A stretch of DNA of 64,000 bases from Phoronis australis (Eukaryota > Animalia > Phoronida). The first letter of the stretch is position 1; each line of letters opens with the position of its first letter. Shown in pieces: positions 4,484 through 59,289 of this stretch. Where the stretch lies: assembly GCA_002633005.1 (NCBI GenBank), contig NMRA01000101.1, positions 945,151 to 1,009,150 on the forward strand, written 5' to 3'. The notes beneath the pieces were generated by a model that ran no database searches, was not told the DNA's origin, and was given only the letters and a program-made list of their open reading frames with translations. Both the position numbers and the translations under genes were made by a program.

Positions 4484-5833
4484 CTGCAACAGACAGAGAA
4501 ACGCAACATGAATCAAACGATGGAAAATTGCCGATGCTAGTAGACAAAGTTATCCTAAAACAGGTTGAACTTTTGAGCATGCCAACAAAAAATCACGTAT
4601 TTTGCATCAATTCAGCTCAACTAGTCCCATTTGATAACTGCATGTTGTTCAGTTCTTATACCTGACACTAGATGTCAGGCAAAGGCGCCGCCATTGCCAC
4701 AACTTTAGCTTTGATATCTTCACAGTTGGTCTAGCTTTGATATCTTCACAATTGGTCTACAACTCAAAGACTGCAAACCAATAGCTGATTTTCAAAATAT
4801 CAGCGACATATTGAAATTAATGACCCGCCAGATGGCGATCAGGTCTTTGGTGGAAAGGCGTTCGTTGCCACTTACACATGGTGATCCGCGGCTGACGGAA
4901 GGATTCAACCTGCTGGTATAAACAGTTTTTTACCTCCTTTTCTGCTATTATAATACAGGCAAATTTCCACTGCTGTGTAGTGGGATGTACCAATGCCTTA
5001 GGCAAACTTTTTAAAATATCAATGGATGAACAAGAGCATCATTACCATCAATCAGTTGGACACATCCCAATTTATATTAAAAAGTTATTAGTTGCTAAAA
5101 TTCTGTGTACAATTCTCATTTGAAACCATCTGAGTCTAACAGACTCGGGATTAATCAGAAGTCATTTTTGTGTTCTTATCATTCTAGAGATCGAGTGCCA
5201 ATATGAAAAGTTCAAATGTGGCATACTTGACTAAGGACTTCTGCTTCCTGTCTGTGGAAGAGCCTAATGACCACATATACACAGCAGAGTTCTCAAAAGT
5301 TTCAAATCAAGTGTTTTGTGCAATGGGCCAACCTGTGTGGCCTGCATACATACGATGCTATTGGTATGGGATCACCTGCACACATACGATGCTATTGGTA
5401 TGGGATCTCATGCATTTTTTTTTTGACTTCTAGCTGTTTCCACATGACGTATAGTTGCTTTGTAACAAGTCATTCCATGTCAAGACGTATAGTTGCTCTG
5501 TAACAACTCATTCCATGTCAAGTCTATTACTAAATTGCAGTCAAAGGGGGATATTTTTTTGAAGGCCTTGTGTCTTCAAATTTGAAGAATTAAGAATATC
5601 GTTTTTAAAAAAGTCTACTGAGTGCATCAAGTATGACAAATTAATGAGCCTGGCTTCAAAAAAGTAATAAACATTCCACTTTTATGTTATCTAGGAGCTA
5701 ATGAATTTAATTCCTTACAGCATTTTTAAGACATAACATAAAGTTTTCATTAAAGATTTTTAGTAAAATTGACTGGGGGTTATCTTGATACGAATATACC
5801 TTTCTTGCAAATGACTTAAAAAATGTGGTCATG

Positions 5834-6845
5834 CATAGGCGGATTTAGGGGGGGGGCCCAGGGGGCCCGGGACCCCCCCCTTGGCTGCCACAAAAAAAAT
5901 AAAACAGCAAGAGCGTAGGGAAATGTTGAGTTTATTAATTAACCCCGATAATTAAAATTATACGGATGAAACAAGATTTAAATGTGTGCAGTTTTAGGGT
6001 TGGGGTGGGGGGGCTCAGATCCAATTTCAGGTGTCAAATTCGGAACGCGGCTTATTCGTAACGGAAGTATAGCTAAGTATAGGCTCTCCCGCGATATCCC
6101 AGGCGACCGGCAGTGGCGCTGCGCACTACGACTCCAGTTCCGTCGTCTGCTTCACTGTGCAACAAAGAAAATTTACTTCATTTTTTAAAGAAAATGGAAC
6201 CTGAGCGACGATGAAAACAGAATCTGCTGGTAAGATGTGAATTTAAATCGAAGCCTTAGTGAATCACTCAGAAACTCATAATTCTCTCTTTGTCAAAATG
6301 ACTTTTAAGTCTTAAAAGACGATTTCCTAAGCAACCCGTCATTATTGCCAACACGAAAAACGGATTTGGTCTTTTGGGCATTTGAAGAGTATTTTAAATA
6401 CAACAAATTTGTTAAGAACCGATTGCACAAAATATAAAACATGTTATAAACATTACAAAAAGAAGTAAGTTTCGCGCGCAAACGCTATGAACCATAAACA
6501 AGTAGGTTTCTTAGTATAACTATAGCAGAGAAGTCGTGGTGGTGTAGTGGTAACGCACGTGCTCGCTAACTGCCAGGTCGCGAGTTCGAGTCTCTGGTAC
6601 GTGTAGTTTTCCTGATTTGATACGTTCTTCGTTTTTTTTTTCTTGGATAATTCTTCAGGAATCAAGGAAAATGCTTGATTTTTGGAGGAAAAAACAGAAA
6701 AATTTCCTTGGCGAGAGGGGGGCAAACCCCCCCTTCCGACCTGCCCCCTTCGGTGCTATGCGCGTCTACAATCGTGGTTTGCGCAAATGCTTACAGCCGG
6801 ACAAAATGTTGGCCCCCCCCTTGTGATATCCTAGATCTGCCACTG
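5834..6845 (+). mobile_element. Non-autonomous hAT-like (hAT5-type, 5-bp TSD) element, copy 1, with internal tRNA-like A/B boxes
   Basis: Imperfect TIRs CATAGGCGGATTTAGG / CCTAGATCTGCCACTG; TCATG duplicated on both sides; homologous to 9941-10880 and 29282-30220. Confidence 0.88.
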
Positions 6846-7061
6846 TCATGTGACAATAATAAAGACACAGTAGTAAGAAGCATATTTTTAGAATTATCAA
6901 TCTTTCTCATTTCAGATATTAATAATCAATACTGTGGTTGACAAAACATACTATCAGCTTTTTCGATATCTAACTTGAAGTTGAGGTCGTTTATTAAGGT
7001 CCTAGATAACTAAAAGCGATTCACAGCCATCAACCACTGAATTGATTATCCCTGTCATTAC

Positions 7062-7191
7062 CTTGCCACAGTCATCACAATAGGTAATGTTGGAGCTCAG
7101 CAGCCCAAACTCATCCCCACACAAGATGCACTGACTCTGACCATTACCCATGGCGTTCTTCTTCATGTTTTCCAAACGTTCCACCAGTCGA
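7062..7191 (-). CDS. RPH3A: Rabphilin-family exon: RLVERLENMKKNAMGNGQSQCILCGDEFGLLSSNITYCDDCGK (first half of the FYVE-type zinc finger)
   Basis: Acceptor TTTCAG| and donor AAG|GTAAT. Two CxxC pairs. Matches rabphilin RLVDRLENMRKN...CILCGE. Confidence 0.95.
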
Positions 7192-7350
7192 CTGAAACGA
7201 AAACATAATTGAACATGAGTAATGTGGCATCTTAATTAAGTATAATTAAGATGAATGACAAGGACACGTGATTCCTTTTAAAGTGAAAGTGCTCTGAGAA
7301 GCGACACATCAAACGTAAATTAGAAGCGAGGACGACAACCAAAGAAAGAA

Positions 7351-7533: not shown

Positions 7534-9940
7534 AATGATGACCAAGACAACACTGATGATGGTAGCAAGAATAACACTGACAAAATTGAACAAACGATCA
7601 GTCATTCAACCACGAGACAATTCATACTTTATGTCCAACAACTCGTCACTGTCGGACCTTAGACATCAGAATTATGTATCATGCATACAGCTACAATGAG
7701 AATTGTGCATTATAGTATAGTTCATAATGCGAGCTGGAAGGAATTTATGTCATTTGTGTAGTTATGACGTATCTACAATCATCTTCAATTCAGCAAGATT
7801 TCGGCTGTCATAAACATAAGTTTTGATTTGCTAGTTAGGACACTGTTATGATGTTTTCAGTCAAGGTTTAAGTCCATGATTTTAACCTTTAAAAATTGAT
7901 CGTCGTTAGTTGGGATTTGAAATGCATACATTTGCTTTGAATAAACTGATTTTTGAGAGCAGAAATTCATTTGACTCAAACCCACCATGCAGCCACAAAA
8001 ATGTCATACCTAGCATTTAGAATGGCCAGATGTGCACCAGAGGATGCAATACATCAATTTTAATCGGCTTATCTCCCTGACTGTTAAAGGTTTATGAATT
8101 GATTTGAGGTCCTGGTGATTTTGTCTGTATTCATTGATAACCTGAATTTAATGCACATCTAAATGTTTAGTAGGAGCTTGAAGTTGTATTTTCTTTAACC
8201 TCCGTGCATGGTTATATTAAAACTATATAAGAAAGATGTATTTTAATCTGCTCCATTTGTAGATGTCCACACCTTGTCGATTTATAGCGGAGAATGATGT
8301 AGCCCCTTTAATTGACCACAAAAGTTTATACCTAGGCTAACAAGTTAAGGATGAAGCTGGTACTCAGCTGAAGTACAGTAACTTATCGTCGTCATTCTCC
8401 ATTGCCTGCGGAACTATCAGATTTCATGGAACTAGAGGCAGGTTGAGAATAGACCACTGATTCAAAGTTAGAAAGGTTAAAATAAGTATTCACATAAAAA
8501 ATAACGGGCGTAAAAAAGCGCACACGTTCATTTAGATACACACGTAAGGTCAGGCATGAGGTTGCGTTTCCTCTTCCCGCGCACAGGTACTAAACAAAAT
8601 ACACTATTTGGTTTCAATGTACACAGCTTGGTGATGGCAAATCATACTGGGACGCCTCAGCAGATTGACTATACATGAATGCAATTCTGTGTGATGTCGT
8701 TTAGCAATACTTTTTTCAGTATTTGATATCGTGTTACATACCCTCTGCGAAATCTCTCTATTGTTTAACACAACAGAGATACCGGTATAGCAAGAATTGT
8801 GTAAAATGTAAAATATATATACCGGTAGCAGAAATTGTGTATTTGAAACATAGATATAACAGGAATTGTGTTGTAACGTAAATATCGCAAGCATTGTGTA
8901 TAATAATTTAGAAATCGCAAGAATTGTGTATTATAATGGATATGAGGTAACCACAACTGGACGAGTCTGTGTCCCAAAGAGTTTTATTGGTGAATTTTTT
9001 TAACTTAATTAATGACTTGTCTTTTTTCAAAATAAGTTAATGCAAAAAATATAATATGCTTTAAGCCACAAAATATCTCATAGTGTTGCTTTTGACATGA
9101 AACGTTGTCCATATAAGCGACAGCTCTTGCTCCTGATCCCTTTAAAATACTGAATTATGAAATAACTTTTTCTTTCAAATTTCAAAAAAAAATATATAGT
9201 TTTGACAAATAGTAACAGTCATACTACAGGTGAAACTGGTGCACATTAAACAATAGTTCTCATTCTACCTAAATACAGTATTCAAATTAAACACACAAAG
9301 TGAGCTAACTACACAAGGGGTTGGCTGACTACTTAATGAGACTGAGCTCTTCGTGGCCAACTAATTCATCAAGCTCATAAGAGAACAATGAAAGTTATTA
9401 GCAACGATCTTACTGTAGCCCTAATTACTTACTCAAGGAGATGTGAGAATCGATTTTTTCACTCTCAGCAATACATAAATTTGATTTACTAAACAGTTAC
9501 TTCTTCTGAGATTGGCATTCATTACTTGAACACAACAGACGTGAAAGAAAAAAATGTTAAAATCAATACTGACAATATGTTGAGACAGGCAAAAGTTGAC
9601 AGATGAATTTCATATTGAAACATTCTCATGAGCTTCATCAGAATAGGCCTCGATTTTGTGACCTGCGGATTTTGTTTAATAGCCACCTGGTAAAAACAGT
9701 CGTCACGTCACACCTGAGCGTGTACTCAGAGAAATGGTCGATTTTGAAAGCCGTGGAAAATAAATGATCGAAACAGTTTTATCTGCAAAAACTGCGATAT
9801 ATTCTTTTACATGTAAACATGCAATCCTCAGTTACATTGATGGCATTGAGTAGGTCTGACGAAGTGCGCATCAGAATCAATTTCAACTATTGCATTAAAG
9901 TTTATTGTTTATCAGAATGAATAACTCATCCAAATCTATG

Positions 9941-10880
9941 CATAGGCGGATTTAGGGGGGGGGCCCAGGGGGCCCGGGCCCCCCCCCTTGGCTGCCGCAA
10001 AAAAATAAAACAGTAAGAGCGTAGGGAAATGTTGAGTTAATCAATTAACCCCGGTAATTAAAATTATACGGATGAAAAAAGATTTAAATGTGTGCAGTTT
10101 TAGTGTTGGGGGGGGGGCTCAAATCCAATTTCAAGTGTCAAATTCGGAACACGGCGCATTCGTAACGGAACTATGGCTAAGTATAGGCTCTCCCGCGATA
10201 TCCCAGGCGACCGGCAGTGGCGCTGCNGAAAATGGAACCTGAGTGACGATGAAAAAACAGAAGCTGCTGGTAAGATGGGAATTTTAATCGAAGCCTTAGT
10301 GAATCACTCAGAAACTCGCAATACTCTCTTTGTCAAACCTTATGTTAAGACGATTTCCAAAGCAATCCCGTCATTATTGCCAACACGAAAAACGGATTTG
10401 GTCTTTTGGGCATTTGAAGACTATTTTAAATACGACAAATTTGTTAAGAATCGATGGCAAAAACGTGTAATAAGCATTACAAAAAGTAGTAGTTTTCGCG
10501 CGCAAACGCTGTGGACCATAAACAAGTAGGTCTCTTAGTAAGGTATAAGTAGTTAAGTTGTGGTGGTGTAGTGGTAACGCACGCGCGCTCTATGCGCAAG
10601 GTCGTGAGTTCGAGTCTTTGGTACTTGCAGTTTTTCCTGTTTGACATGTTCTCCGTGATTTTGTTTGCCTTTTTTTCTTGGATAATACTTCAGGAATCAA
10701 GGGAAATACTTCATTTTTAGAGGTAAAAACAGAAAAATTTCCTGGGCGGGAGTGGGGCACTCCCGACCTCCCCCCATTCGGTGCTATGCGCATCTACAAT
10801 CGTGGTTCAGTTTGCGCAAATGTTTACAGCCGGACAAGATGTTGGGCCCCCCCCCTTGTGATATCCTAGATCCGCCACTG
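9941..10880 (+). mobile_element. Same hAT-like element, copy 2
   Basis: Same termini; TSD CTATG; an internal segment is missing at the single N at 10227. Confidence 0.88.
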
Positions 10881-11135
10881 CTATGTAATAACTTTTAAGA
10901 ACAATCATGTATTGTTTGAAATTCAACAGCGAAGGAAGACACATATTCATTTAGACAAGTACATGGTGATACACTTAATTAACGCTTCCACTGATCGATG
11001 ACATTAGAGCTGCTAGCTGATGAGAAAAATGACAGCTAATTGAAATCAATGATGTCACTTTTCCAAAGTGAGGCGAATGTTGCAACACAGAACAACAGCA
11101 TTGCCAGCAGATCCTCAACAACAACAACAGCCCTC

Positions 11136-23258: not shown

Positions 23259-23399
23259 AAAAATGATTACTGATGGTAAAAGAAAGCATGAAAATTTTGA
23301 GATATCCAGTTGAGAAACAGATCAAGTTTGAGTCTAATACTAGAATAAAACTTACAAAAATTAGTTATGTTGCATCCGCATCTCATGGACTTCAGCTTG

Positions 23400-23665
23400 G
23401 ATTGGGACATTATCATTATTCTGGCCAATTGGTGGCGTTTTGACCAGACAGAGCGGCATTGACGTCAGAACACCATCCCATACGTGTGACAAATCGAATC
23501 TTAAACTGCCTCTTTTATTTAAAGAGCCCGGACTCTCAATGCGCTCATGGAGAGCTTCCTTTACACCCCTTCTGAACCAGTGTTCCTCTAAGTCTAGGAT
23601 AATGACATCATCAGTATTGAAATCATGTCCAGTGGCGCACAGGTGGCTAAAAATAGCCAAATCAT
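23400..23665 (-). mobile_element. Penelope-like retroelement 3' fragment (GIY-YIG endonuclease C-terminus)
   Basis: AIFSHLCATGHDFNTDDVIILDLEEHWFRRGVKEALHERIESPGSLNKRGSLRFDLSHVWDGVL matches the PLE pattern SAxxxH...GH.F...ILD.E..WF.RGVKEA...LN..GG.R..L. Confidence 0.85.
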
Positions 23666-25087
23666 AAGTGTCCCCGTTACAAACGATAATATCACAAGCC
23701 AAGCTGAAGTCCGTGAGATACGGACGCAACGTCGCTAATTTTTGTAAGTTTTGTTCTAGTATTAGACTCAAACTTGATCTGATGGTCAAAGAATAACAAG
23801 ATTTATTTTTTCCAATGAATTTTAATCTAATCACCATCCTACTTGTCAGCCACTCATACCGAACTCAAATCATGAAAAATGGCTGATATGGCAGCAGGCA
23901 CAGTTTAAGTCTTGCTAAATCAACAGTTGGGTGCAGGTTTACTGACACTTAACACCTAGTGAGTAAATGGGTCATCAGATTTAAAATTTGGTTTTAATTC
24001 TTACTTAATCAAATTATCTAATTAACATAGGTATAACGTATCAACAGGCTAATGTTTTTGGGGTAAACTTTCAATTTTTATTTGACAAGTTAACGTGCAT
24101 AAAATGTGTTACTTGACTTTAAAAGATCAGGTGGACACCCAGCCCTGACATTGCTCAAAAGAATGACATCACGTAAATGGAATGAAAATGTAATGGGTTA
24201 AGTTGGACAATAAAAATGACAAATATTACATACTGTCCTGGTAGGCAACATATGGTGCATGGTATTATTGCATGACATACCATTTCCAAACCTCCCAACA
24301 GAAACAAAATATAAACACACTGATACAGATAAAGCCTACTTCACCATGGATACCAGCTGGCTGTATTTAAGTGCTGAACTCTTTCTAGCATTAAGCATAA
24401 AATACTTTCTACCTAGGCACATACTACTCCATGTGAACACCAACTTGGCAGTCAATTATTGTCACGCTATTTTCAATATTTTTGGATGAGTAAATGTATC
24501 CACTCTTACAAAACAATTGGCATCAATGAAGTATATCACAAAATAAAAATATTAGTCAAGATTTACAAACCAGAACAGACATCAGCTGAAGACAAGAGTG
24601 AGGGGACAAGGTGGTGAAGACATCAACACACAGCACCAGGGCTGAGGATAGGTCAGACTCCGTCTACTCTTGAACCAATCAATAACGAAACATCATTCAA
24701 CATACAGTATAAATTAGAAGCCTGCATTGGACATGATAAGACCATTACCCAGACAGGACAGGACATAAATCACCAAAACTAATGAAGACAAACGACTCCC
24801 ACTCCACAACAAGATTGTAAGGTGAAACATAAAAATTGAAAACTTGTTTCTAAATAAATAAGCATTTCCATTTTAAAGATGACCATAGGAAGTGAGTTTT
24901 CTACAAACAAGGTTGTGGTGGAGGGAGGGGGGGCTATTCAAATTTAGAAAATAGTATGTTTGGAAATGTCAACTGTGCACTATACTGGGTGTATTACATA
25001 ATACCTGTCTGGTGCCCTCTCAATACATGATCATCCCTCCAAGTGGAAGTTTATTGTTGAGAGGCACTTTAGGTATAGATTTCTATA

Positions 25088-25591: not shown

Positions 25592-28500
25592 TATGAATCC
25601 AGGGAAGGTTTTACAATGCAACCATTATTTTCTTCAAATATACACCCTTGGCCTATCTGAGAAAGATGTCCATTATATACACCCATTCAGGGCCTAACCA
25701 AAGATGGGCCTGTCTGCAGAAAACCCCATAGGGCAATATGTGTCAGTTTTGTTATAAGTGGTGGTATACACACCTTTCAGATCAGTAGTTGAACTGCAAC
25801 CAATGCCAGAGACAGTTAATTATGCTGGTAGATAAATGCCTATCAGTTGTTTAACTACCACATGAAATCAGAGCTAGAGGCACCTTAATTATGGCGGTAC
25901 ATAAAATTCTATCGGTTTTTGTGACTACCTTATGAAATCAGTGCCAGCATAACCAGAAAGGGTTAAGTAACAAATCGGCGATTTTTTGTTTGCCTACTTC
26001 CGAAAGCAATTACAAAATTGTTTAACTTAGAAGAAAATAATTTATTCCACTGGAAAGAGTTGTCCTTAGGCAACAGGACGTGATCATTTTTGTTCTATGA
26101 CAAAGGTTAATGACAAAATTGTGGTTTAAAAAAGTCGACTCCAACACACGCCATCAGAAATTCCCACACACACAACAGGTATACTGTTGATGTATAGATG
26201 GCGCTGAAGTCGACTATAGTCTCATGTAGGTCGCGTGCGCATCAGCAGCATGTGGTCCCCGGAGAGTCACTTAATGAAATAAATAGAAGCTGTTTCTGAT
26301 GCTCAATGTGGTTAACTCTCACTGGTACCTGCAGTAGCTTCTACGCCTGCTGAGGGTACCAGCACAATTGCAGCTTGTATTACATACGTTTTTACGTTTT
26401 CATGAAAATGTTATTATAAAACGGTATAATATACCAGCGTTTGAATTTAGGCTAGTTACTGTCACAACGAGAGAAATCAAGAGTTGAAATGGAACCATGA
26501 CAGCACCACTAACAGAATGCTTTTACGGGTTTTTAATAGTTTCATACAATGGCCACTAGATGGTGCACAGTACATCAAGCCTGTCCAAAAAATCACAAAG
26601 TGTTGTCGCCTCCCTAAAAGAAAACTAGAGACATATGTGAAAAAAGTAATTCGCCATTTGTTGTTAACGGGAATACTTTAATGCCAAATTTCCAAAATAT
26701 GTCGCTAACAGTTTAGGAGACTATACAGTCGCAGATGCAAAAAATGCCAATATGAGGTAACACAATCATTAGAACGCTCTGAAAATCCAGGTGCTTTTGT
26801 AAGAAGGAACATCCTTTGAGAGGTCAAGTAGCCACCTAAAACAATACAAATAGCCAAGAGGTGCCACAAAATACGTCGAATCTACTCGAAAATCAAAAGG
26901 ATCGTCATCTCTATAATAGAAACCTAATTGTCAAATTTCACGAAAAAAACATCACAGAACTGCAAAGATACATCAAGGTAAACATAAGGAATAAAAATGC
27001 CACTAGGGGAAACAGTGGTGAACTGATTGTTTAAGTTTAACTTGATGCCAACTATTGTCAGATCCATAGAAACACATCTACCTAATTTAACAAAGATCTT
27101 GCAAAGGGATAAGGAGATATAGCTGCAGACACAAGAAGAAAACAAAATAGGTGGCGCCAATGCATGCGAGACAAAATTAAATTACTGAAGGAAGAGTGCA
27201 GTTTTTAATGACACTAAAATTACAGATTGTAGTAAATTCTTTATTTAAATGAGGACTTACACTTTATGTTGCCACATACGGCACACAGCGAAACACTATG
27301 CCTCAAGCAAATTGGCAACAAATTACAACTCGTGCATTTTGAAATCCTTGCCACTAGAAAAAAGCTTTGTTGGCAAAAATTAGTGATAAAATAGTTATTT
27401 GATGAAAGTGTAATGACTGCATGAAGACGACCAAAGCATTTGAAATCTCACTAAAACTTTAAGTATTTCTTTTGACATCTTGACTTGACATGATACACAC
27501 ACCTAGTGTGCTGCTAGGATAACTTCAAAAATGAAAACATAATGAAACAGTAGAGGGTCAACCATTCTTTCGGATGTGTTATTGTGGAGAAAGATTTTAG
27601 GCTCAGCTTTTACGACTGGTTTCTGTGCGATCGTCGAATAGTACTTCGCGCCAACCTGGGGTCTAATTTGCACCCTCTGACCGAGAAATCAAAACTAGGC
27701 AATGCTATAAAAAGGAGATATTACCAGACATTGAAGGTAAATTGAAGTCATTCAATTCCCAGATTTTTTGCTTCAAGCACAGGCAGATGAATTGCCCATG
27801 ACCCATAACGAGCATATGCTCCCAACTTCAACTGTCCCAAATCCAAATAAAATCTGCGTGAACCTCCCTCATTGAAAGTGACACTAAACTATGAGAACAC
27901 ATATGGGCGTGCAAAACAGAGCTTCGACAATGCCAGGTTCGGGATCATCTGTGGAAAATCAGCGGATGTATAAACGAAAGCCGTGCCATCTGCCAAACGT
28001 CACAAAATAGCCTTCTTGAATTTGTGATTTAGGTGTTTTTTTTTTACATTTTTGTTGTCAAATCACCACTTGGAGGTAATTAAATGTGATCAAGTGAAGT
28101 GAAAGAAGGTAAATCGATTTGTTCGATGCTGATTTCGTGGAGTTACTGAGTAGAAAATTCTGAGCAAGCCGATTTTCAGTGTCCAATTTTTATATTTTAC
28201 TACACATGCAGTGAGTGATGTCAGTAGTGATCGCGAAACCGATAAACTCAAGTGGCTGCGGTTTCATCCTCAAGTAACATTTTAGAAAACATACAATTTT
28301 CAGGTCCCTGCGATTTTTAAGGCACTTTCTGCATACTCAGATCGTTCCAAACCCGTCTACGTACATCTTTGCATAAAGGCTATGGTGGTGCCAAACTTTT
28401 ACCCACACCGTTCACTGCTACATGTGTTTTGACGTTCCATACACAGGTGGCTAGCTGGCTAAAAACATGCCGAGATGGTGCGTGTCGTGAATCACATCAG

Positions 28501-28670
28501 GACGTCACTCATCAGGCATCATCGTAACTATCACTCAGAGACAATCACCATCAGACATCTCTAGTTAAATTAAATTGGGTAACCCCAACATCGAAAAGAA
28601 TCCTTTGTAAGCAATATTAAATTGTAACAATTGTACTCAACAAAATAATAATAACAAAACGTCAGCTTAC

Positions 28671-28723
28671 CTTTCCCCCTGCTGCTTGAACAGCTGAAGC
28701 GCAACAAAACAATCAATGTCGTT
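28671..28723 (-). other. Candidate non-coding first exon of the rabphilin-family gene
   Basis: Strong donor AAG|GTAAGC at 28671/28670, directly downstream of the mirrored element. The first coding exon has a UTR acceptor at 16513 that needs an upstream donor. The TSS position is not determinable. Confidence 0.45.
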
Positions 28724-28835
28724 GTTAAAGCCCAAGTATAGATGTGCACTCCGGTTAAACTGGGTAGCCTACACGGTTCGTCCGCGCAGGCCAAGTATAG
28801 CCAAGTCTAAGCAGTCTACCGTTGAAATTTAAATA
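28724..28835 (-). promoter_or_regulatory. Mirrored promoter-proximal element, rabphilin-facing copy
   Basis: Its reverse complement aligns with 30338-30451 (39/45 and 14/15 identical blocks). The regulatory role is inferred from position only. Confidence 0.5.
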
Positions 28836-29281
28836 ACTGACACAGTTATAAAATTACCAAAATCGGTTTCATTTATGAGCATATAATCATTACGGAACTG
28901 TCTGTTTGGTAGGTAGAATTACTTACCATGCTGTTTAGGAGTCAAATAAGTTGCAGTTAATTACATCGCCTCAGGCTGCTGATGTTATTGTTCTCTAGAT
29001 AATCAGACTGATCATAAACACATTGGGGCAACAATTTAATCAGTTTGAAAGTTTTTAAATAGCATATTTAAATAGTTTGTGACAAGTACATGTGATTTGA
29101 TTTTTGAATTTTGATAATCGGATAAGAAATGTGGCTTTTACAACCCCAAAGTTTGAATAATGTTATCATAATATGTTCTTCATTAATTCTGGTGATTGTG
29201 GAACATCCATGTATTTGGGCCACTTATTAAACCACCAGGCAGCAGTGGAATTTCAGGTTAATGCCAAATATTGTCCTCATA

Positions 29282-30220
29282 CATAGGCGGAAAAAAAATA
29301 AAACAGCAAGAGCGCAGGGAAATGTTGAGTTTATTAATTAACCCAGGTAATTAAAATTATACGGATGAAACAAGATTTGAATGTGTGCAGTTTTGGTGTT
29401 TAGGGGGGGCTCAGATCCAATTTCAAGTGTCAAATTCAGAACACAGCGCATTCGTAACGGAACTATGGCTAAGTATAGGCTCTCCCGCGATATCCCAGGT
29501 GACCGGCAGTGGCGCTGCGCACTACGACCCGTTTCCGTCGTCTGCTCCGCTGTGCTATGAAGAAAATTTACTTCATTTTTTAAAGAAAATGGAACCTGAG
29601 TGACGATGAAAAAACAGAGGCTGTTGGTAAGATGTGAATTATAATCGAAGCCTTAGTGAATCACACAGAAACTGGCATAATTCTCTCCTTGTCAAATCTT
29701 AACTTAAGACGATTTCCAAAGCAATCCCGTCATTATTGCCAACACAAAAAACAGATTTGGTCTTTTGGGCATTTGGAGACTATTTTAAATACAAAAAATT
29801 TGTTAAGAACCGATTGCACAAAATATAAAACATGTAATAAGGATTACAAAAAGAAGTAGGTTTCGTGCGCAAACGCTGTGGACCGTAAACAAGTAGGTCT
29901 CTTAGAAAGAGATTACTAGTTAAATCGTGGTGGTGTAGTGGTTAAGTATGCGCGATCTATTCGCCAGGTCGTGAGTTCGAGTCTGTAGAATGTGCATTTT
30001 TTCCTGTTTGACACGTTCCTGTTTTTTTGCTTTTTTTTCTTGGATAACACTTCAGGAATCAAGGAAAATGCTCGATTTTTAGAGGAAAAAACTGAAAAAT
30101 TTCCTGGGCGGGACCTCCCCCCATTCGGTGTTATACGCATCAACAATCGTGGTTGGCGCAAATGCTTACAGCCGGTCAAAATGTTGGGCCCCCCCTTGTG
30201 ATATCCTAGATCCGCCACTG
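29282..30220 (+). mobile_element. Same hAT-like element, copy 3, inserted between the divergent genes
   Basis: Same termini with the G/C hairpin after the left TIR deleted; TSD TCATA. Confidence 0.88.
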
Positions 30221-30337
30221 TCATACAATTCTTGACATGACAAGTGAAAAGGAATTAGAACGAGCCTCTGAAGTAACAACGAAAGAATGGCACATGACAA
30301 TTTTTTTTGCAGTCGGTTACTTTATAGCAATGGTAAA

Positions 30338-30451
30338 TATTTGGGTTTTAACGGTACACCATCCAAATGGTTCATTTCAACTTGGGCTGCGGGGTGGAAC
30401 CGTATAGGCTGCCCAGTTTAACCGTGGCTATAAACCTACTTGGGTTTTAAC
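30338..30451 (+). promoter_or_regulatory. Mirrored promoter-proximal element, PGAM5-facing copy
   Basis: Ends 141 bp before the PGAM5 ATG, contains TTGGGTTTTAACG twice, and is an inverted homolog of 28724-28835. Confidence 0.5.
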
Positions 30452-30591
30452 GTCGCCTTCAAACACAACCGCTAGATAGCGCGGCTGTTTCAATCTTCCA
30501 CTAGAGGTCCTCCTCAGCAGTATTTCCGGCTTTCAGCCAGTTCAGTTCAATTCAGGTGCTTACCGGTTTGTTTTCAACCTTCAAATCGACG

Positions 30592-30809
30592 ATGAGTAGC
30601 CTGAAGAACGTATTGCGTCTGGGGAAAATGCTGTGTGGTGTAGGAGTTGTTGGTGGATCTGTTTTGGTCGCAGCCACTGTGATCGATGAAGGAATGAGCC
30701 CGTCACTGTGGTCAAAAAATGTCTTTGCAGCTACTCCAGAAGTCCAGGCTCCATCCACTCATTTGCAAAAGTTTGGGCCAGGGTGTAAATGGGATTTCAA
30801 TTGGGACAG
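30592..30809 (+). CDS. PGAM5: PGAM5 mitochondrial Ser/Thr protein phosphatase, exon 1 (N-terminal hydrophobic anchor, WDFNWD motif)
   Basis: ATG at 30592. The WDxNWD allosteric motif is diagnostic for PGAM5. Donor AG|GTAGC is phase 2. Confidence 0.92.
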
Positions 30810-31854
30810 GTAGCTTGTTTACCGCAACTTTATTTCATGAATCATTTACAAATAAGAATGTTATTGACGTGCTTCTGGTGAATCACATGACCCTTGGCTT
30901 TGTTAGCCATTCTATTATTAGTATTATGGTGCCAGTTATCAGTAGATCAATCGAATCCGCCATGAATTTTACTCCGATAAGTCTTTGGCATACCTGCAGA
31001 CTGCCGTAGTTCCTACATTAGGCAATACATTGCCTGTGAATGCTGTAGTCATACTGTAGATACCTTATAAGGCCAGTTGCGAAATAACGATGTTTATCGT
31101 CTGGGGCATGCGAGGCATTTTTTAAATTCTTTTATTCTATGGTATCACCAGAAGTAGTGTCACAGACCCTTGTGACAGATGTCTGATGAATATACTTGGA
31201 GTTTAGTGTTGTTATGAGCAAGCACAATCCTCAAGCTTTAGTCTTATTACGAGGAGTTTCAGGGAAACGTGGCAGTGTTCTGCTTGATGTTTGCAGCGAC
31301 ACAGCTGATATGATTCGCAGCTCCCGTATATACCTAGAGGCCATACACTCTGCTGCAAATCCATTTGATGATTGATGAATTTCCGTTCTCTATGTGCTAA
31401 AGTTTTTACTGATGCTTACAAACAGATTTTTTAAATAAAAAATCAACGTGATTCATTATTTATTCATACAAGTGCAATAAACATGTTTATTTTTTACCTG
31501 GCCTACTAGTAATGGAACTCCTCAACCAATTGATGAACAAGTATATTACTAGTAAACAATGTGCATGAAAACAGTTACGTCATTGGTCTGTCTCTATTTA
31601 CTGTTAAAACATTTTTTTCTGTTTTATTTCTGACTTAGTAGATAATGGACCATATAGATTGTTGCATGATATGGGTGAAGGAAAGTCAACATTCATTTGA
31701 TAAAGGTGCTTCACTTCTGATGTTCTTCATGGAAATCTATTTGTTTTTATTTTTAAAGAGAGTAACACTGATTTCAAGAATTATTGTGATGCAATGTGCA
31801 CTAGTACATTGTGTATTTAATCTTAATCTTATCTTTGAATAATTTTGTTATCAG

Positions 31855-32033
31855 ACGAGAACCAAGCAGTTTATTAAAACCACCAAATAAAGAAGACGAA
31901 GTGGACAGTAATGAGTACCATGAGAAATTGAAAGGAATGAAGGCTACTGCTACCAGACATATATTGCTTGTACGCCACGGACAATATAACATTAACAATG
32001 ACAATGATGCCAAGAGAACTCTAACAAATTTAG
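31855..32033 (+). CDS. PGAM5: PGAM5 exon 2 (REPSSL...KATATRHILLVRHGQY, catalytic RHG)
   Basis: Acceptor TATCAG| and donor G|GTAAA. Contains the histidine-phosphatase RHG motif. Confidence 0.96.
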
Positions 32034-32375: not shown

Positions 32376-32501
32376 GTATTTCTCAAGCTGTACAGACTGG
32401 AGAGCGGTTAGCTGAACTTGGTTTACCCTATAAGAGCATAGTTCATTCCACCATGACCAGAGCTACAGAAACAGCCAAAGTGATCAGTGAATCCCTGCCT
32501 G
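32376..32501 (+). CDS. PGAM5: PGAM5 exon 3 (QAVQTGERLAELGL...HSTMTRATETA)
   Basis: Acceptor TGCAG| and donor G|GTATG; 126 nt, phase 1 to 1. SxMTRAxET motif. Confidence 0.96.
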
Positions 32502-34180
32502 GTATGATTGAATGCTGTATCACCTGAGCTTGGACGCCAGAGGAACTCATTAGCATTTTGGTGACCTTGTTGAACCTCTATTCATCAATCACTTTAACAT
32601 CTTCTAGGCTCTCCATGTATATTTTGCTTAGTTCTCATTTTGTACCATTTCTGTTTTACTACCTATAAATTTCAGTGCTTACTTCCTCCCAGAACAAAAA
32701 TCTACTTAGTTCTTGTCTTTTACGTGAGTCAAACTAACAAACTGAGGTTCTACAAGGAGTGTCATGAGTCACTCAGTTAGCCGCCATGCTAATATGAAAG
32801 AGAAACTGGTGTCATATTAATATGCGCCACTTATATACACATGTGGGACTTATTTCCATCATCTGTGTCCATGCGTCAGGCGTACACTGCCGTACCTCCT
32901 TAACCCCTTGCACGATGCCAACAAGATTTGATAGATATCTTCCTATCGAGATGACAACTAGCTTTGGACCTATCTGAGTATTTTTAAATTTGTGTCCCCT
33001 ACTAGCAATTTTCTTTTCTCTCCGTTTACCTCAGTGTATTTAGAGTTCTGTGATTTTTTTCATGAAATACTGGGGTCCATTTCTGTACCTCCTAAACCCT
33101 TGCAGAATCTTAATTGAAATTTGGCAGATGCCTTTCTATGAAACTGACGACAGATGACGACGAAACTGACGACAGATGACGACAAGTCTTACATTGATCC
33201 AGCTACTGTTGAGCTCCTTAGTGGCAATTTTACATTTTATGTTTGTTTCTGTATCAGGGCTTGGAATTTTCCTCTTTTAAGAGGATTTCCTATTTTTTTG
33301 GTTTTTATTCCCTCTTATTTGATATCCAGTTTCGTCTTTTTTCCTAACTTTTTATCACTAATTTGACTTAATTCATGCAAAACCGTTTATTTTACTTAAT
33401 AGGTTTTACAACACAAAAATATTTCTATCAAACAAGTCAATTTATTTTTGGCCTGATACATCATCTGGAAAATTTTCCTCTTTTTCTCATTGGTCATTCC
33501 AAGCCCTGCTGTATATTTGGAGATCCTTGATGGACTTTCATGAAATTTGGCTATTAATGAGACAATGACACCACATTTTCACAATTGTTTGTTAGTGTTC
33601 CTATGAAGCTGACGACAGATGAGGAAAAGTTTTGAATTGATCCGACTGTCTCAAGTGGCTATTTTAGTTTTTTACATTGCTTCAGTATCTTCCTAGTGAA
33701 TTGGTAGGTTTTCATGAAATTTGACAAATAGGTTGCTATTAAGGAGGCGATCACGCCATTCCATTTTCCGAAATATTTTGCATCATCTGATGGCCATTTT
33801 TGTTCCTTTTAGTCTGTTTTTTGGCACCCACCTATCTGTTTGTCAAACTGCTTGAAGGATCATTGTCAAAATTGACATGTGTTTCTGCGGAGTAGACTAC
33901 AGCTGACATTGGTTTTCGGATGAGTCCAACTACTGTGGCACCTCCTAGTGGGAATTTTGTTTTTGTTACATCCACACCTGTATCTCTTTAACCCAGGATC
34001 TTTGGAAAGTGCTTTCCTTGATGGATCTTCATGATATTTAGATATGTTTTTATTGATAATAGTATCTGGTAAAACTGATGTGGATTTTAGTTCAATCCTC
34101 GCTAACGCGGACTGTGAAATATTGACCATTAACAATACTGCTGATGTATTTGACAGCTGTGCTTTCCCTTGTGCTTCCAG

Positions 34181-34269
34181 GCGTTCCAATGACCACTTGT
34201 GAGTTGATAAGAGAAGGCGCCCCATATCCTCCTGAACCACCTTCTGTTAACTGGAAACCAGAAGCTAAG
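34181..34269 (+). CDS. PGAM5: PGAM5 exon 4 (CELIREGAPYPPEPPSVNWKPE)
   Basis: Acceptor TTCCAG| and donor AAG|GTACT. REGAPxxPxPPxxxWKPE motif. Confidence 0.95.
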
Positions 34270-34584
34270 GTACTTCCAAGTGATGTTGATGATCGATTGG
34301 ACAAAACAATATTTTGCCATTTAAACTCTTCTAAAACGTTTTGTAAATTGATGCTTGGCAATCCATATTTTTGTTGCTTTTTAGGTTATTTGTATGTGCC
34401 CACATATATATATGGGCAACTAGTGGCAATTTTAGTTTTTATATTAGCCTCCATATCTGCCACATTTCTTAACAGATTTTCATGAAATTTGGTATGTAGG
34501 TTTCTGGTATGTAGACAACAACACCTTTCTATTTTCAATTGGAGTCTATGTAATCTGCCTCTCTTAGTTGCATTTTTGTAGAAG

Positions 34585-36046: not shown

Positions 36047-36180
36047 CAGTTTTTTGAAGATGGTGCTCGAATTGAAGCTGGTTTCAGAAAGCACATCCAC
36101 CGAGCACCTCCATCACAGAAGGAGGACAGTTATGAGGTGATTGTGTGCCATGCAAATGTCATCAGATATTATGTGTGTAG
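36047..36180 (+). CDS. PGAM5: PGAM5 exon 5 ([20 protein letters not shown]...[20 protein letters not shown])
   Basis: Acceptor TTTCAG| and donor AG|GTAAG. DGARIEA and CHANVIRY motifs. Absent from the ORF track. Confidence 0.96.
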
Positions 36181-37106: not shown

Positions 37107-37257
37107 AGCTCTTCAACTACCTCCAGAAGCCTGGCTAAGAATGAGTCTGCACAATGGTAGTATTACTTGGTTGGTTATTCGACCCAGTGGACGTGTGGCC
37201 CTCAGAATGCTTGGTGACGTGGGCTTCATGCCAAAACACCTAATGACAACCACATAA
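37107..37257 (+). CDS. PGAM5: PGAM5 exon 6 ([49 protein letters not shown])
   Basis: Acceptor TTACAG| and TAA stop at 37255-37257. The six exons sum to 897 nt, or 298 aa plus stop. Confidence 0.96.
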
Positions 37258-53064: not shown

Positions 53065-54481
53065 CTAAAATCATGTTGAGAATAATTTTCACTAAAAATG
53101 GTCCATTATCGACAAGTGTGCAAAAGGCATCCTTTCAGGTGACATGAAGAGCAGGATCCTCCCCCTCACCGGGACGACAAGACAGTCTCTCTTCATCACC
53201 CAGAAAAGACCCCCTCATCATTAAACCTAGACCCCTCCTCTCACTACAAGAAGACACTCTCCCCTCGTAATAAAAAGACCTGAACAGATGACTTACTCCC
53301 TCATTATGAAAAGAAGACTATCGCAAATCATCAAGAGACAAGACTCCCTGTCTCATATTGAAAAGACTCACTGCCTCGTCATAAAGAGATGAGGCCCTTC
53401 CTTCATAACGAAAAGAAAACCACATCATCATGAAAAAATCTCTCCCCTCGTCATGTAGAGAAGTCTGCCGCCTTAGCTCATCGTGAGAAGACTCCCTTCC
53501 GTATTTTGAAGAGAAGAGTCTCTCCTTTCGCGATGAGGCGAAGAATCCCTCACCTCATCGTTAAAAGACTTCTTCCCCTTCCTCACGCATGGGCGGCGCA
53601 GCAGTGAAATAAATGTGGGGCTATAGCCCCCCAGCCCCCTATGGTGCGGCGCCCAAGTCAAGAAGACAAGACTGCAAACGAAACAAAATTTTAATGTCGG
53701 TCTGAGGAGAAAATTAACAGCCTTACTTCTGTGCACAGATAGTGATTCTAAAATGTTTACGCAGATTCCGGAAAAAATGCAAAATGGACTCGCACGAACA
53801 GGTCAGCAGACACACTTCTTTTCACATGAGTTGCATTTCCTTTGTCACCCTCAGCAATGCTCTCCTCAGCCCGAAAGTAAAATTTTGTTTGAATTCCCTT
53901 CATACCTAAAGAATGAAAACTCTGTGCAACAGATGCGAGCGTGCTCGACCGTGAGAACTTGAAGTACTACAAGATTTCACTTACCTGCTGAACCCTTTCA
54001 GAGGCATGAGGGAAACAATAAAATAAGAGAACGTCCTTACAAACTCTCAAAAAATGGTGAGGTACATAATAATACACTTCTCCAATAGAGGTCGCAATGT
54101 ACATGGAGAATGTTCGTTAAGTGCTGCCGATTTAAAGTATTTTTATCAATGGAGTTTTCATTTTTAAATGCACAAGGGCATGAACATATGCCAACTTTTA
54201 AGGTATATATCCCTGCCCTTGTGCATTTTGTTTTACAAAATGGCACACATTACAAACAATATGAAGAATGCAGTAGTGACAGTAACACTCGCTCTGAGAT
54301 GTTTGGATTTTATGGTCGAAAACGCGTTAACAAAATGAAATTTGCAGTTTTCTGTCACTCAAGTGATAGCGTGATTGTTCTGGAGCTCGCGCGTCAGTGG
54401 GCCCTGACGTGTGAACAAAATTGTTTTCAAATCTCTATTTCACCTTTGTGAGAAAAGTTATTCTACTCAGAATTTACTTAC

Positions 54482-54686
54482 AAATGACAAAATGGCGACT
54501 GTGACTGTCAAGCCTATGTGGATGACAGGCATGTAGACGGATTTGAAACGTTCATCTATGGCTCCTAGTGTCACGAGGACCAGGGCGAAGGTAATATAAA
54601 GTTCAACAAAAACACCTTGAACCAAACTGATGGATGGATGCAGTGACGGCCCACCAATGGTGCTGGCAAACGGCTCGCCGAGCGAA
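54482..54686 (-). CDS. Aquaporin exon 4 (loop C, TM4 QGVFVELYITFALV, TM5 IGLTVTVAILSF)
   Basis: Acceptor TTTTCAG| and donor |GTAAGT. ExxxTFxLV and IGLxV motifs. Confidence 0.94.
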
Positions 54687-55900
54687 CTGAAAAATGCGAC
54701 AGAATATTTCATAATCAATTAATATGATACTATTTTTTCGGATTAATATCATATGCACACACACACGCATGCACGCACGCACGTACACAAATGACAGACA
54801 TCAACACAAGGTTAAACAACAACGTTATTTTATGTTTTTGTAAAGGTATACAACAATAACAAGAATTGCTATTATATGAGTTAGTGTACGCGAATCACAA
54901 ATAAAGAGCAAAAGGATGACACCCAAGGTCGAATTTGTACTCTTAGGCATGCTCAAATCAATGCCATGGCAACATTCAATTTTAATACGAAAACAAACAG
55001 CACGGTCTCTATATAATAAAATCTTGACATAAAGGCATACCTTCAAGGAGTAAAAATAGAAAGGCAAACCAATAAAGAGGTGTCTATTAGGTTTTTGGGT
55101 CAACCCATTAAGGGTTATTGTTTGTGAATAACATGAAACACCTGGAGAATGGGTAAGCAATAACTTTGAAAATATATTTGTACTACAGAATATTAGCTTT
55201 CGGAGTATCTTCTTTCTTGAAAAATTTATAATCCTTTATTTTCTGGTGAATTTTGCGTGGATTTGGCAGTTCATTTTTAACAAATTTTATCACTGAATCG
55301 TTACTCGCGTCAAGCACCATAAACTCACATTATTTTTCAAAATCGGGTTTTTTTTGAATAAGTAAACTTATGTTCAAGACAAATGATGCGTGTACCGCCA
55401 CTAATTCTAATTAAATGGTCAGTATGCTTAGGGGAGGGGAGGAGACACGTAAGTCCTAATACTACACGTACAAAATTCCTAAAGGGTCAGTTCAGTCGCA
55501 CCAAATTCATTATTTGAACGTCCGACACCGTGTTGCTCAAAACACCTGTAATATACTGTGACAACAATGAAATTGCACTGTGCCTGAGATGTTCTAACTT
55601 TGCCTTTAAGTTTGTATTTTTTCGCATTTTTAATGCCTTGTTTTTTCTCCCATTTCATGTATTAGTTAATTTACAACTTAAGTTTGAGCTTAATTAATTT
55701 GCTATTCCTTTCCTTCCTCCCTCCCTCTCACCATCCCTCCTTCTCACCCTCCACCCCGCCTCACTCCTCCCTCCTAAAACACTGTCTTACAAAGATTGTC
55801 AACAAGTTGTTTCAACGTTTGTTGTTTCAAATTTCTTGGGTACGTTGTGAGATCTACTTTGGGTGACAGAACCCTTAGTTAAAGAAAGTATTCGACTTAC

Positions 55901-55961
55901 TTTGACCAAGACAGGACAGCTGCAACAGAGCCCACACTTTGGGCTATTATGTACAGAAACG
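55901..55961 (-). CDS. Aquaporin exon 3 (AFLYIIAQSVGSVAAVLSWS, TM3)
   Basis: Acceptor TTTTCAG| and donor AA|GTAAGT. YxxAQxxG motif; phases 1 to 2 fit the neighbouring exons. Confidence 0.9.
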
Positions 55962-56288
55962 CTGAAAACATTAGATATTTCTGTTATTTCACACATTTAT
56001 CAAACAAACAAACATTTCAATACTAGGATGATTAGTCTATTGGCAACATATTAGAACCAATTACTTTAATTTAGCTTAAAATGGAATGGCCACTTTGTTT
56101 TTCTTAACTTTCCACAGAGTTATCATGGGCACTTTATTTAGGGTAAAATTTCTTGAACTTATGAATATCATTAGACTACAGTTGCTAAAAAGTAGCCTAC
56201 AACGGAAGCTCTTAATTGAGAAAGAAAATCACCTGTCCAGAATGGTGTTCAACGTTTGAAAAATAAGATTTCCAAACACAGGTATTAC

Positions 56289-56423
56289 CTCTCAACACTG
56301 AAATTCTGTGTGTTATGAGGAATGAGACACTAATGGCCGGGTTCATGTGACCTCCGCTGATATGAACGAAGCATTCGATCAGAACTAAGAGCGCCATCCC
56401 ACATCCCAACGCAAATCTCAAAT
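56289..56423 (-). CDS. Aquaporin exon 2 (TM2 and HISGGHMNPA, first NPA)
   Basis: Acceptor TTGCAG| and donor G|GTAAT; 135 nt. MIP signature SGxHxNPA. Confidence 0.95.
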
Positions 56424-57195
56424 CTGCAACAATTAAAATCCTAGAAGACAAGGGTTTTTCATTACAAATTTTTCAAATATTTATCATCAACTATACACGA
56501 CTTTCCATTACTTGACCTGAATAGCCCGGTAGGAGCCATTTCATGATCACGTGACTATCTCGCTATCGCCATACGGAGTGCGTGTGGATTTTACACTTGC
56601 TGAATGACAGCCTTACCACATATCTGGGTACTGAATGTTTGCAAATGTGTCAATGATCAAACTGCTTTCTAGATCAATGTCAGTTTTAGGTGTCTATGCA
56701 TTTCAGTACAGATGACGTGATAGCTGGTGTTAGTGTAACCATAAAGTCTAAGTATTCTCCATTCTCGGCAAGCTCGTATTGGGAATCTAGTGCGTCATAG
56801 CAGGACAGTCTTAAAGTGACATCCAAGCGAACGCTTTGATTTCACACACTTTCCGCAGCAAAATTGATTTCAACCTGTTCCTCACTCTGATGAGAAGTCA
56901 TTTCTGGATTTGCAAGGAACTGAAAGTTCGTTACTACTTTAAATCATACTTAGTCCATAAATTGGCACGCCATAGCAAGCCTACTTGCACAGCCTAGTCT
57001 CAAGCAGTAACGAAATGCCAGTTCTGCAGAAGCTCTTGAATCCATCTAAAAGTTGTTTGTGTGATGGAAAGCGGGTTTATCGCCTTTTTAACTGGTACAA
57101 CTGCAAGGCGTGTTCAGACATGGTACAGACCTAAGGCACTTTACTATCTTTGACAAACTAAATTTCTTCAATGTAAGTTGTGAAACGTTATTCAC

Positions 57196-57319: not shown

Positions 57320-57495
57320 GTAGCTACCCGTGAACTTGTAGACCCTGAAATTATTTATGTCTATACGAGAATACTTCGCTTGTGCAACTAATTATTTATG
57401 ATATTCAAAACAGAAGAATTGTTAACCATGAAGCATTTTTTCTGAAACCTGCTTGATCCTCAAAAATTATTTTATTGCATTCAGACCAACGTTTA

Positions 57496-58831: not shown

Positions 58832-59289
58832 TTAACGGAGAGGCTGGGGCTGGACCTTTTCCGCGGTGGGGTTCGCTCGAACCGTTTGAATCCCCTTGGC
58901 TACGGGCCTGCTTCGCATTGTACAAAAGAATGTTTTTGTTCACAACTACCCTGCATTGATTTCACGGCATAGTGTTTCACGTATTTGTTTTCATGGTGAT
59001 TTTTGGAAAGAATGCAAACTGAAACCCTTCGGCACTCAGTAACAGTAGCCTAGATTATGCATTTGAAAATCGGTCTCAGTCACAAATTATCTCTCAATAG
59101 GAGATGTTCGTATGTAATTACGGATAACATTTATTCGCCCTAAATGTGCACATCTATCAACATCAAATTTACAATACAAAGACACTTCACTGAATAACGG
59201 GCATAGGGCACAGGTTATGTCTGACTATTGAATTATTACGTGCATACATTTGAGAACGAAATTAATGCCCGTTATTCAATATTGAGTAA

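What the first reader, a model, noticed from the sequence alone, without database searches (positions are those of the whole stretch)
28724..30451. Mirror-image ~110-bp element in front of each of two head-to-head genes
Seen: the reverse complement of 28724-28796 (ACTTGGCCTGCGCGGACGAACCGTGTAGGCTACCCAGTTTAACCG-13nt-TACTTGGGCTTTAAC) aligns with 30380-30451 (ACTTGGGCTGCGGGGTGGAACCGTATAGGCTGCCCAGTTTAACCG-12nt-TACTTGGGTTTTAAC). The blocks are 39/45 and 14/15 identical, with an unrelated spacer of nearly equal length. A third block (TATTT-3nt-TTTYAACGGTASAC) lies 17-20 nt further upstream in both. Each copy points toward its own gene: 141 bp before the PGAM5 ATG, and about 50 bp before a strong minus-strand donor that could end rabphilin exon 1. 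No other copy was seen in the window. Inference: conserved blocks with scrambled, length-conserved spacers suggest a long composite protein-binding promoter element under selection, built from a repeated TTGGGYTTTAAC-like site, rather than a neutral duplication. I do not recognise it as a described core-promoter motif. The alternative is old transposon TIRs domesticated as outward-firing promoters.
Basis: partly seen in the sequence, partly recalled or inferred. Interest (0 to 1): 0.8.

Follow-up and report, generated by a model that had tools for sequence, protein, structure and literature searches.

The report
Mirrored twin promoters between divergent genes
Two back-to-back copies of a 135-base sequence face outward toward a rabphilin-like gene and PGAM5; RNA reads start right behind one copy, so the pair is likely one promoter duplicated locally rather than a genome-wide motif, and PGAM5 messages carry a short foreign front piece that could be a spliced leader.

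Summary
The inverted pair is real (E about 1e-10) and longer than reported: four blocks over about 135 bp, 70% identical across the last 112-114 bp, modestly clustered (p about 0.015; a runs test was not significant). Stranded RNA reads confirm the predicted rabphilin donor in 14 of 14 reads, and their 5' ends run up to the downstream edge of copy A, not into it, so copy A is that gene's proximal promoter region. Copy B is not shown to be PGAM5's promoter: about 21 of 30 PGAM5 reads stop at two AG acceptors 95-105 nt downstream and continue into sequences absent from the window. No third copy appeared in the window, two whole-genome contig sets, metagenomes or earlier scan notes, which argues against a widespread motif or a young MITE, though sensitivity was limited. 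Best reading: one local inverted promoter duplication, later pushed apart by two repeat insertions, with retained TTYAAC (Myb/Ovo-like) sites. Domesticated Kolobok-like ends remain possible. The most interesting lead is the roughly 50-nt foreign 5' piece on PGAM5 mRNA, a candidate spliced leader, untested on a second gene. The scan had not noted this element elsewhere.

The parts
28724..28858 (-). Copy A, about 135 bp; blocks 28858-28845, 28835-28814, 28796-28752, 28738-28724; lies directly upstream of the 5'-most rabphilin reads
   Evidence: RNA depth zero from 28733 to 28918
30315..30451 (+). Copy B, 137 bp; blocks 30315-30328, 30338-30359, 30380-30424, 30437-30451; block 1 is a 15/16 direct repeat of block 3
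   Evidence: (D6, I1, I11); RNA depth zero 30320-30539
28671..28723 (-). Non-coding exon 1 of the rabphilin-like gene; 5' ends of reads at 28699 (commonest) up to about 28718-28723 (longest, inferred from bin depth); donor 28671|28670 used
   Evidence: arithmetic
   Evidence: FYVE_2 PF02318 E 1.1e-6 on exon 7074-7199
30544..30555 (+). Two AG acceptors (30544-45 and 30554-55) in front of PGAM5 at which RNA reads leave the genomic sequence for foreign 5' pieces
   Evidence: table 7
30592..30810 (+). PGAM5 first coding exon; further exons near 31855-32033, 32377-32502, 34181-34270, 36047-36180, 37107-37257
29282..30224 (.). About 930-bp dispersed TIR-type repeat inserted between the copies (also at 5831-6849 and 9938-10886, about 85% identical)
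28950..29230 (.). Second high-copy repeat remnant between the copies (summed contig depth up to about 2,900 against 7.26 over copy A)

Best explanation
Two inverted copies of a 135-bp sequence point outward at a rabphilin-like gene and PGAM5, rabphilin transcripts begin at the downstream edge of one copy, and the pair likely arose by a single local inverted duplication of a promoter, each copy likely serving as the proximal promoter of its own gene. Shown: the pair, its block structure, the used rabphilin donor, read starts 1-25 nt after copy A, two repeat insertions (about 1.2 kb) in the middle. Inferred: the retained blocks bind sequence-specific factors; each copy carries three TTYAAC words in the same orientation and register (two read YAACSG, a Myb/Ovo-type site) plus a TACTTGGGY word, so a spaced array of such factors would open the chromatin and position polymerase II just past the last block. 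Because each gene has a complete directional copy, transposons could land between them without cutting a shared element. For PGAM5, initiation behind copy B is predicted by symmetry only; its first 95-105 nt would have to be removed by splicing to a foreign 5' piece or differ in the animals sequenced.
For: Pair E 1.4e-10, no third copy in the window. 14 of 14 exon-1 reads (9, 2, 3 in runs X5, X6, X7) are minus-strand RNA and leave at the predicted donor; none reaches 28733. Each copy lies inside one contig with a gene's first exon and no other contig was laid on it at 80% likeness (X1 flat depth 7.26; X2 1 record). Mismatches cluster in spacers of conserved length (p 0.014-0.017). TTYAAC 3 and 4 times on the sense strand and 0 antisense against 0.12 expected; YAACSG 2 and 2 against 0.06 (motif chosen after seeing the sequence). 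No RNA family, tRNA or shared fold.
Against: No read links copy B to PGAM5; about 21 of 30 reads stop at 30545 or 30563 and the 14 with printed loose ends continue into sequence absent from the window, so PGAM5 may start elsewhere. The runs test for clustering is not significant (p 0.085; 359/1961), and two sequences cannot show selection. Ordinary RNA-seq of 14 reads is a rough start-site map. The lay tool missed copy B when laid on copy A (longest exact run 13 nt), so diverged relatives can be missed. The outer ends fit a transposon rule. No orthologous locus could be read.
Confidence: 0.55

Rival explanations
1. The two copies are the left and right ends of one old TIR transposon (Kolobok/T2-MITE-like, about 0.5 kb before the nested insertions) that landed between the genes; conserved blocks with free spacers are transposase-binding sites, and at least the left end was co-opted as an outward promoter.
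For: Both outer ends read TTAA, then two purines, then a 9/10 inverted repeat, the Kolobok rule given in PMC9587614 and PMC6004289 (passages). Short terminal repeat plus spaced subterminal inverted blocks is usual for transposon ends (own knowledge). A Kolobok MITE in a promoter is reported in PMC8327909 (passages).
Against: No other copy in two whole-genome contig sets. The base outside TTAA is also mirrored (C on both) and TTYAAC recurs 2-3 more times inside each copy, including a 15/16 repeat of the terminal block in copy B, which suits a repeated motif better than a target-site duplication. No other duplication is clean (flanking hexamers 4/6). No transposase reading frame among ORFs of 70 aa or more in the interval was recognised (not searched against families).
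Confidence: 0.2
2. Only copy A is functional; copy B is a leftover of the duplication and PGAM5 is driven from another start (a distant exon, or sequence that this haplotype lacks).
For: Zero RNA depth 30320-30539 in 3 of 3 runs; two different foreign 5' pieces at two acceptors; one is 23/30 pyrimidine and looks like an intron end from a haplotype that differs from the assembly; the RNA animals also differ by a fixed substitution and a 4-nt deletion.
Against: Copy B keeps the blocks as well as copy A and has the better Ovo-type matches; it lies 141 nt from the ATG with normal CpG content; a cis exon would have to lie more than 30 kb away across the antisense rabphilin gene.
Confidence: 0.15
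3. The element is an undescribed composite core promoter used by many genes of this animal.
For: Fixed orientation to both genes and a start site at its edge in one; no paper among 21 listed describes the words as a promoter motif (listing only).
Against: A simulated third copy diverged like A and B shares an exact run of 18 nt with the laid copy in 14-46% of cases, 5-24% at 22 nt; none was laid in two runs, so fifty copies would all be missed with p below 0.01 even at the weakest setting, if the contig sets are complete. No look-alike in earlier scan notes or metagenomes. The aquaporin gene in the window has no copy.
Confidence: 0.1

Closest known systems
Head-to-head (bidirectional) promoter pairs of invertebrates, e.g. 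amphioxus, 25% of neighbouring genes (PMC6292497, passages read)
   Same: Divergent protein-coding genes with starts close together; one is a likely housekeeping gene.
   Different: Here the two sides are paralogous mirror copies of one 135-bp sequence, now 1.7-1.8 kb apart because of repeat insertions; the passages read do not mention inverted duplication (0 hits for 'inverted').
Kolobok / T2-MITE transposon ends (PMC9587614, PMC6004289, PMC8327909; passages read)
   Same: TTAA on both outer flanks, RR..YY termini, short imperfect inverted repeat.
   Different: Single copy in the contig sets; the TTAA-bearing word recurs inside; 135-bp block homology is far longer than the 12-16 bp repeats given in those papers.
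OVO sites clustered at Drosophila germline start sites, core TAACNGT (PMC11410370, passages read); Myb YAACNG sites (recalled)
   Same: Repeated TAACNGT/YAACSG words close to a start site.
   Different: OVO sites have no fixed spacing to the start; here spacing is kept between two paralogous copies, and no binding was tested.
Spliced-leader trans-splicing (SLIDR paper PMC7986045; chaetognath PMC12460157; copepod 46-nt leader PMC4664967; flatworm PMC12582326; passages read)
   Same: A short 5' piece from outside the locus, joined at an AG acceptor with no upstream donor seen nearby.
   Different: Seen on one gene only; no leader RNA gene found; sequence not found in the papers searched; a second, longer foreign piece at the neighbouring acceptor does not fit a single leader.

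Membership tests
Bidirectional promoter pair | Two divergently transcribed neighbouring genes | tested here: met
   Stranded reads on opposite strands; gene identities
Bidirectional promoter pair | Start sites within about 1 kb (usual definition, recalled) | tested here: not met
   Outer ends of the copies span 1728 bp; about 0.5 kb without the two repeats
Bidirectional promoter pair | Mapped capped start sites and shared open chromatin | not testable with these tools
   No CAGE or ATAC run was offered
Kolobok / T2-MITE | TTAA target-site duplication and RR..YY termini | tested here: inconclusive
   Pattern present at both ends, but the word recurs inside and the outer base is mirrored too
Kolobok / T2-MITE | Dispersed related copies in the genome | tested here: not met
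   No other contig laid at 80% likeness in X1 or X2; old diverged copies can be missed
Kolobok / T2-MITE | Link to a Kolobok transposase element with the same ends | not testable with these tools
   No genome held
Structured non-coding RNA | Rfam or tRNA match, shared fold with covariation, transcription | tested here: not met
   Rfam: 2 weak matches, neither on the element; 0 tRNA; fold z -2.8 for A, -1.4 for B with different structures; 0 of 11 pairs compensatory; zero read depth (small RNAs would be lost)
Ovo/Myb-type binding sites | Consensus TAACNGT or YAACNG | tested here: met
   YAACSG twice in each copy in register; TAACNGT twice in B, once in A at another place
Ovo/Myb-type binding sites | Binding by such a factor | not testable with these tools
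   Needs pull-down or ChIP
Known core-promoter motifs (TATA, Inr, DPE, Ohler set) | Match to catalogued matrices | not tested
   No matrix library on hand; only a string search of papers
Spliced-leader trans-splicing (PGAM5 5' piece) | Short 5' piece not encoded at the locus, joined at an AG acceptor | tested here: met
   11 reads in X7, median loose length 51 nt, all 75 nt or less; absent from 64 kb with up to 3 mismatches
Spliced-leader trans-splicing (PGAM5 5' piece) | Same piece on two or more unlinked genes | not testable with these tools
Spliced-leader trans-splicing (PGAM5 5' piece) | Leader RNA gene with GT donor and Sm site | not testable with these tools
   No genome held; no look-alike in scan notes

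The most novel reading that the evidence does not exclude
Copy B starts a PGAM5 pre-mRNA whose first 100 or so bases are an outron, replaced by a roughly 50-nt spliced leader of new sequence; this would reveal spliced-leader trans-splicing in an animal lineage with long introns and a minor spliceosome where it may not be on record, and the mirrored element would be a compact, testable composite promoter that fires in both directions from two paralogous copies.
Probability: 0.2. Interest if true: 0.75.

Novelty: new variant of a known kind. Interest (0 to 1): 0.4.

Why it matters
If both copies work, this is a natural footprinting experiment: two paralogous promoters that kept only the bases that matter, in a lineage with no promoter catalogue, and a concrete route by which a head-to-head pair gains two independent directional promoters that tolerate insertions between them. 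On present evidence that is a single-locus curiosity. The larger stake is the foreign 5' piece on PGAM5 mRNA: if it recurs on other genes it would add an animal lineage to the patchy map of spliced-leader trans-splicing, which can be decided in one pass over existing RNA reads.

Tried and rejected
No whole genome is held, so no genome-wide profile scan. No RNA holder was listed by word index; raw runs under the same species label were laid instead. Structured RNA reading rejected; one search used an off-register structure string and is void. Whole-element palindrome not significant (190/500 and 359/500 shuffles). Apparent likeness of the foreign 5' piece to the end of copy B rejected (p about 0.10). 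Second foreign piece as a diverged allele of 30510-30544 rejected (p 0.86). The words GGTTTTAAC and CCCAGTTTAACC also occur in C. elegans SL2 variants (bioRxiv 10.1101/134718, one passage); treated as coincidence: order and spacing differ and the element is not transcribed. Exact-pattern scans found nothing: element in metagenomes and viral contigs; foreign piece in metagenomes, viral contigs, prokaryote genomes; these collections hold little animal DNA, so they say little. Two single-exon protein searches found nothing. The phylum could not be placed: PGAM5 scores about equally against arthropods, echinoderms, molluscs and a brachiopod among 118 proteins compared. Similarity beyond the ends: downstream 60 nt none (112/300 shuffles), upstream 60 nt weak (13/300).

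Full report
Observation. The inverted pair is as described. Blocks of 39/45 and 14/15 and a third of 17/22 are separated by unrelated spacers of 13/12 and 17/20 nt. blastn against the window gives E 1.4e-10 for the partner and nothing else of note; a profile of the two copies finds no third. An ungapped fourth block (11/14) lies 23 nt further upstream, so each copy is about 135 bp: 28858-28724 on the minus strand and 30315-30451 on the plus strand. Similarity stops at the last block (downstream 60 nt: 112/300 shuffles score as well) and fades upstream (13/300). Mismatches cluster more than expected by a sliding-variance test (p 0.017 by permutation; 27 of 1961 matched simulations) but not by a runs test (p 0.085; 359 of 1961), so selection on blocks is suggested, not shown.

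Surroundings. The plus-strand gene is PGAM5 (ATG 30592; six exons match named PGAM5 proteins; His_Phos_1 hit). The 1728-bp span holds two insertions: a 930-bp repeat with two more copies in the window and a high-copy remnant at 28950-29230. Without them the span is about 0.5 kb. The phylum could not be placed.

RNA, rabphilin side. Three stranded raw-read runs (about 18-19% of each read) and one contig set were laid on 28330-29230. Most of the 507, 423 and 600 laid reads belong to the repeat. On exon 1, bin depths work out to 9, 2 and 3 reads, all from the minus strand, all leaving at the predicted donor 28671|28670 with a one-base overhang that fits the G opening predicted exon 2. Five molecules end at 28699; the longest reads reach about 28718-28723 on average (inferred from 66 base-units in the bin 28702-28732); depth is zero from 28733 to 28918. 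Transcription therefore starts at or just past the last block of copy A. Fourteen ordinary RNA-seq reads give only a rough start site.

RNA, PGAM5 side. On 30320-30649, 30 reads were laid (9, 3, 18). Depth is zero up to 30539 in all three runs. In X7, 11 reads carry a loose 5' piece (median 51 nt) that joins at the acceptor TTCAG|G at 30555/30556, and 3 reads carry a different piece (median 111 nt) at the AG at 30544-45; depth arithmetic puts about 5 and 2 more reads of X5 and X6 at the same two places, about 21 of 30 in all. Neither piece is in the window with up to 3 mismatches or by local alignment. All 11 clipped reads cover to 30638, so their loose parts are 75 nt or less; a long upstream exon would rarely give that (p about 0.001 if reads were independent, which mates are not). 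So the commonest PGAM5 5' end is a short piece from elsewhere. It could be a spliced leader, an exon more than 30 kb away, or an exon in sequence that the RNA animals have and the assembly lacks. The last is a serious rival: those animals differ from the assembly by a fixed substitution and a 4-nt deletion, and the longer piece is pyrimidine-rich like an intron end. In every case these reads cannot confirm copy B as the PGAM5 promoter.

Copy number. Over copy A, contig depth in X1 is flat at 7.26 from one contig, while the neighbouring repeat piles to about 2,900; over copy B, X2 laid exactly one contig. These runs may be the source of the assembly. The tool's seed is not stated: it missed copy B on copy A (longest exact run 13 nt), and reads with exact runs near 18 nt appear to have been laid on the repeat (my inference from table 3). 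Simulated third copies share an 18-nt run in 14-46% of cases and a 22-nt run in 5-24%. A handful of relatives could be missed; a young MITE family or a motif at dozens to hundreds of promoters is unlikely. Metagenome and viral scans and scan notes gave nothing, but hold little relevant DNA.

How it most likely works (confidence 0.55). One promoter was duplicated in inverted orientation so that each copy faces a gene (inferred). Each keeps three TTYAAC words in the same orientation and register, two of them YAACSG, resembling the OVO core TAACNGT (PMC11410370, passages) and Myb sites (recalled), plus a TACTTGGGY word. Factors bound to this spaced array would recruit polymerase II to start just beyond the last block (shown for copy A only as read position; binding untested). 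Two complete directional copies would explain why repeats could insert between them. The element is not a structured RNA on the evidence here.

Rivals. (1) Domesticated transposon ends, 0.2: both ends read TTAA, two purines and a 9/10 inverted repeat, the Kolobok rule (PMC9587614, PMC6004289, passages; promoter example PMC8327909), but there are no dispersed copies and the TTAA-bearing word with its outer C recurs inside. (2) Copy B is a leftover and PGAM5 starts elsewhere, 0.15. (3) A genome-wide composite core promoter, 0.1.

Comparison with what is known. It works like a head-to-head promoter pair, common in amphioxus (25% of neighbouring genes; PMC6292497, passages), but fails the usual 1-kb spacing (recalled) and is unusual in being two paralogous mirror copies. 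Ten paper searches were run: the element's 12-mers occur in 23 papers, of which 21 were listed and, by title and abstract start, none concerns this promoter; the foreign piece's 19-mer occurs in none. I read passages only, no supplements; leader sequences kept in supplements or in subscription papers could match unseen. Passages list spliced leaders in cnidarians, ctenophores, flatworms, tunicates, nematodes, rotifers, chaetognaths and copepods (PMC7986045, PMC12460157, PMC4664967; outron wording PMC12582326); whether this animal's lineage is among them I cannot say. An unreviewed scan note on this genome reports a cluster of Sm-type small RNA genes likened to leader RNAs (e1-10416470); a sequence look-up with the foreign piece found no look-alike, so the two are not linked.

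Verdict. Real feature, promoter role supported on one side, not a widespread motif: new variant of a known kind, interest 0.4. The upside is the candidate spliced leader (probability about 0.2 for the full novel case, interest 0.75 if true), decidable from existing reads.

Noticed in passing
window 30544-30563: PGAM5 reads join two different foreign 5' pieces at two AG acceptors 10 nt apart; the commoner is about 50 nt and a candidate spliced leader, the other is over 110 nt and pyrimidine-rich.
   Followed up: partly
window 30559-30562 and 30624: RNA animals differ from the assembly by a 4-nt deletion in the PGAM5 leader and a G>A change seen in 27 of 27 covering reads, suggesting a diverged population.
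   Followed up: no
window 29282-30224, 5831-6849, 9938-10886: Three copies of a roughly 0.95-kb TIR-type repeat, about 85% identical; the copy between the promoters lacks about 40 nt near its left end.
   Followed up: partly
window 28950-29230: High-copy repeat remnant not seen by window self-comparison; relatives are abundant in RNA on both strands.
   Followed up: no
window 28694-28695 (minus strand): An acceptor-like TTCAG lies inside rabphilin exon 1, 30 nt after copy A; a leader joined there would leave only 23 alignable bases and could have escaped the lay.
   Followed up: no
window 28765-28791 (minus strand): Copy A has a 10-bp dyad in block 2 (fold z -2.8); 3 of the 10 pairs are broken in copy B without compensation.
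   Followed up: yes
window 54467-56472 (minus strand): Exons of an aquaporin (MIP, E 1.2e-5); no copy of the element near it.
   Followed up: partly
window 23310-23417 and 23682-23789: 108-bp inverted repeat pair, 87% identical, around a short frame that looks like a retroelement remnant (by eye).
   Followed up: no
window 57490-57642 and 58685-58837: 153-bp inverted repeat pair, 96% identical, flanking the 828-base assembly gap; likely a TIR element.
   Followed up: no
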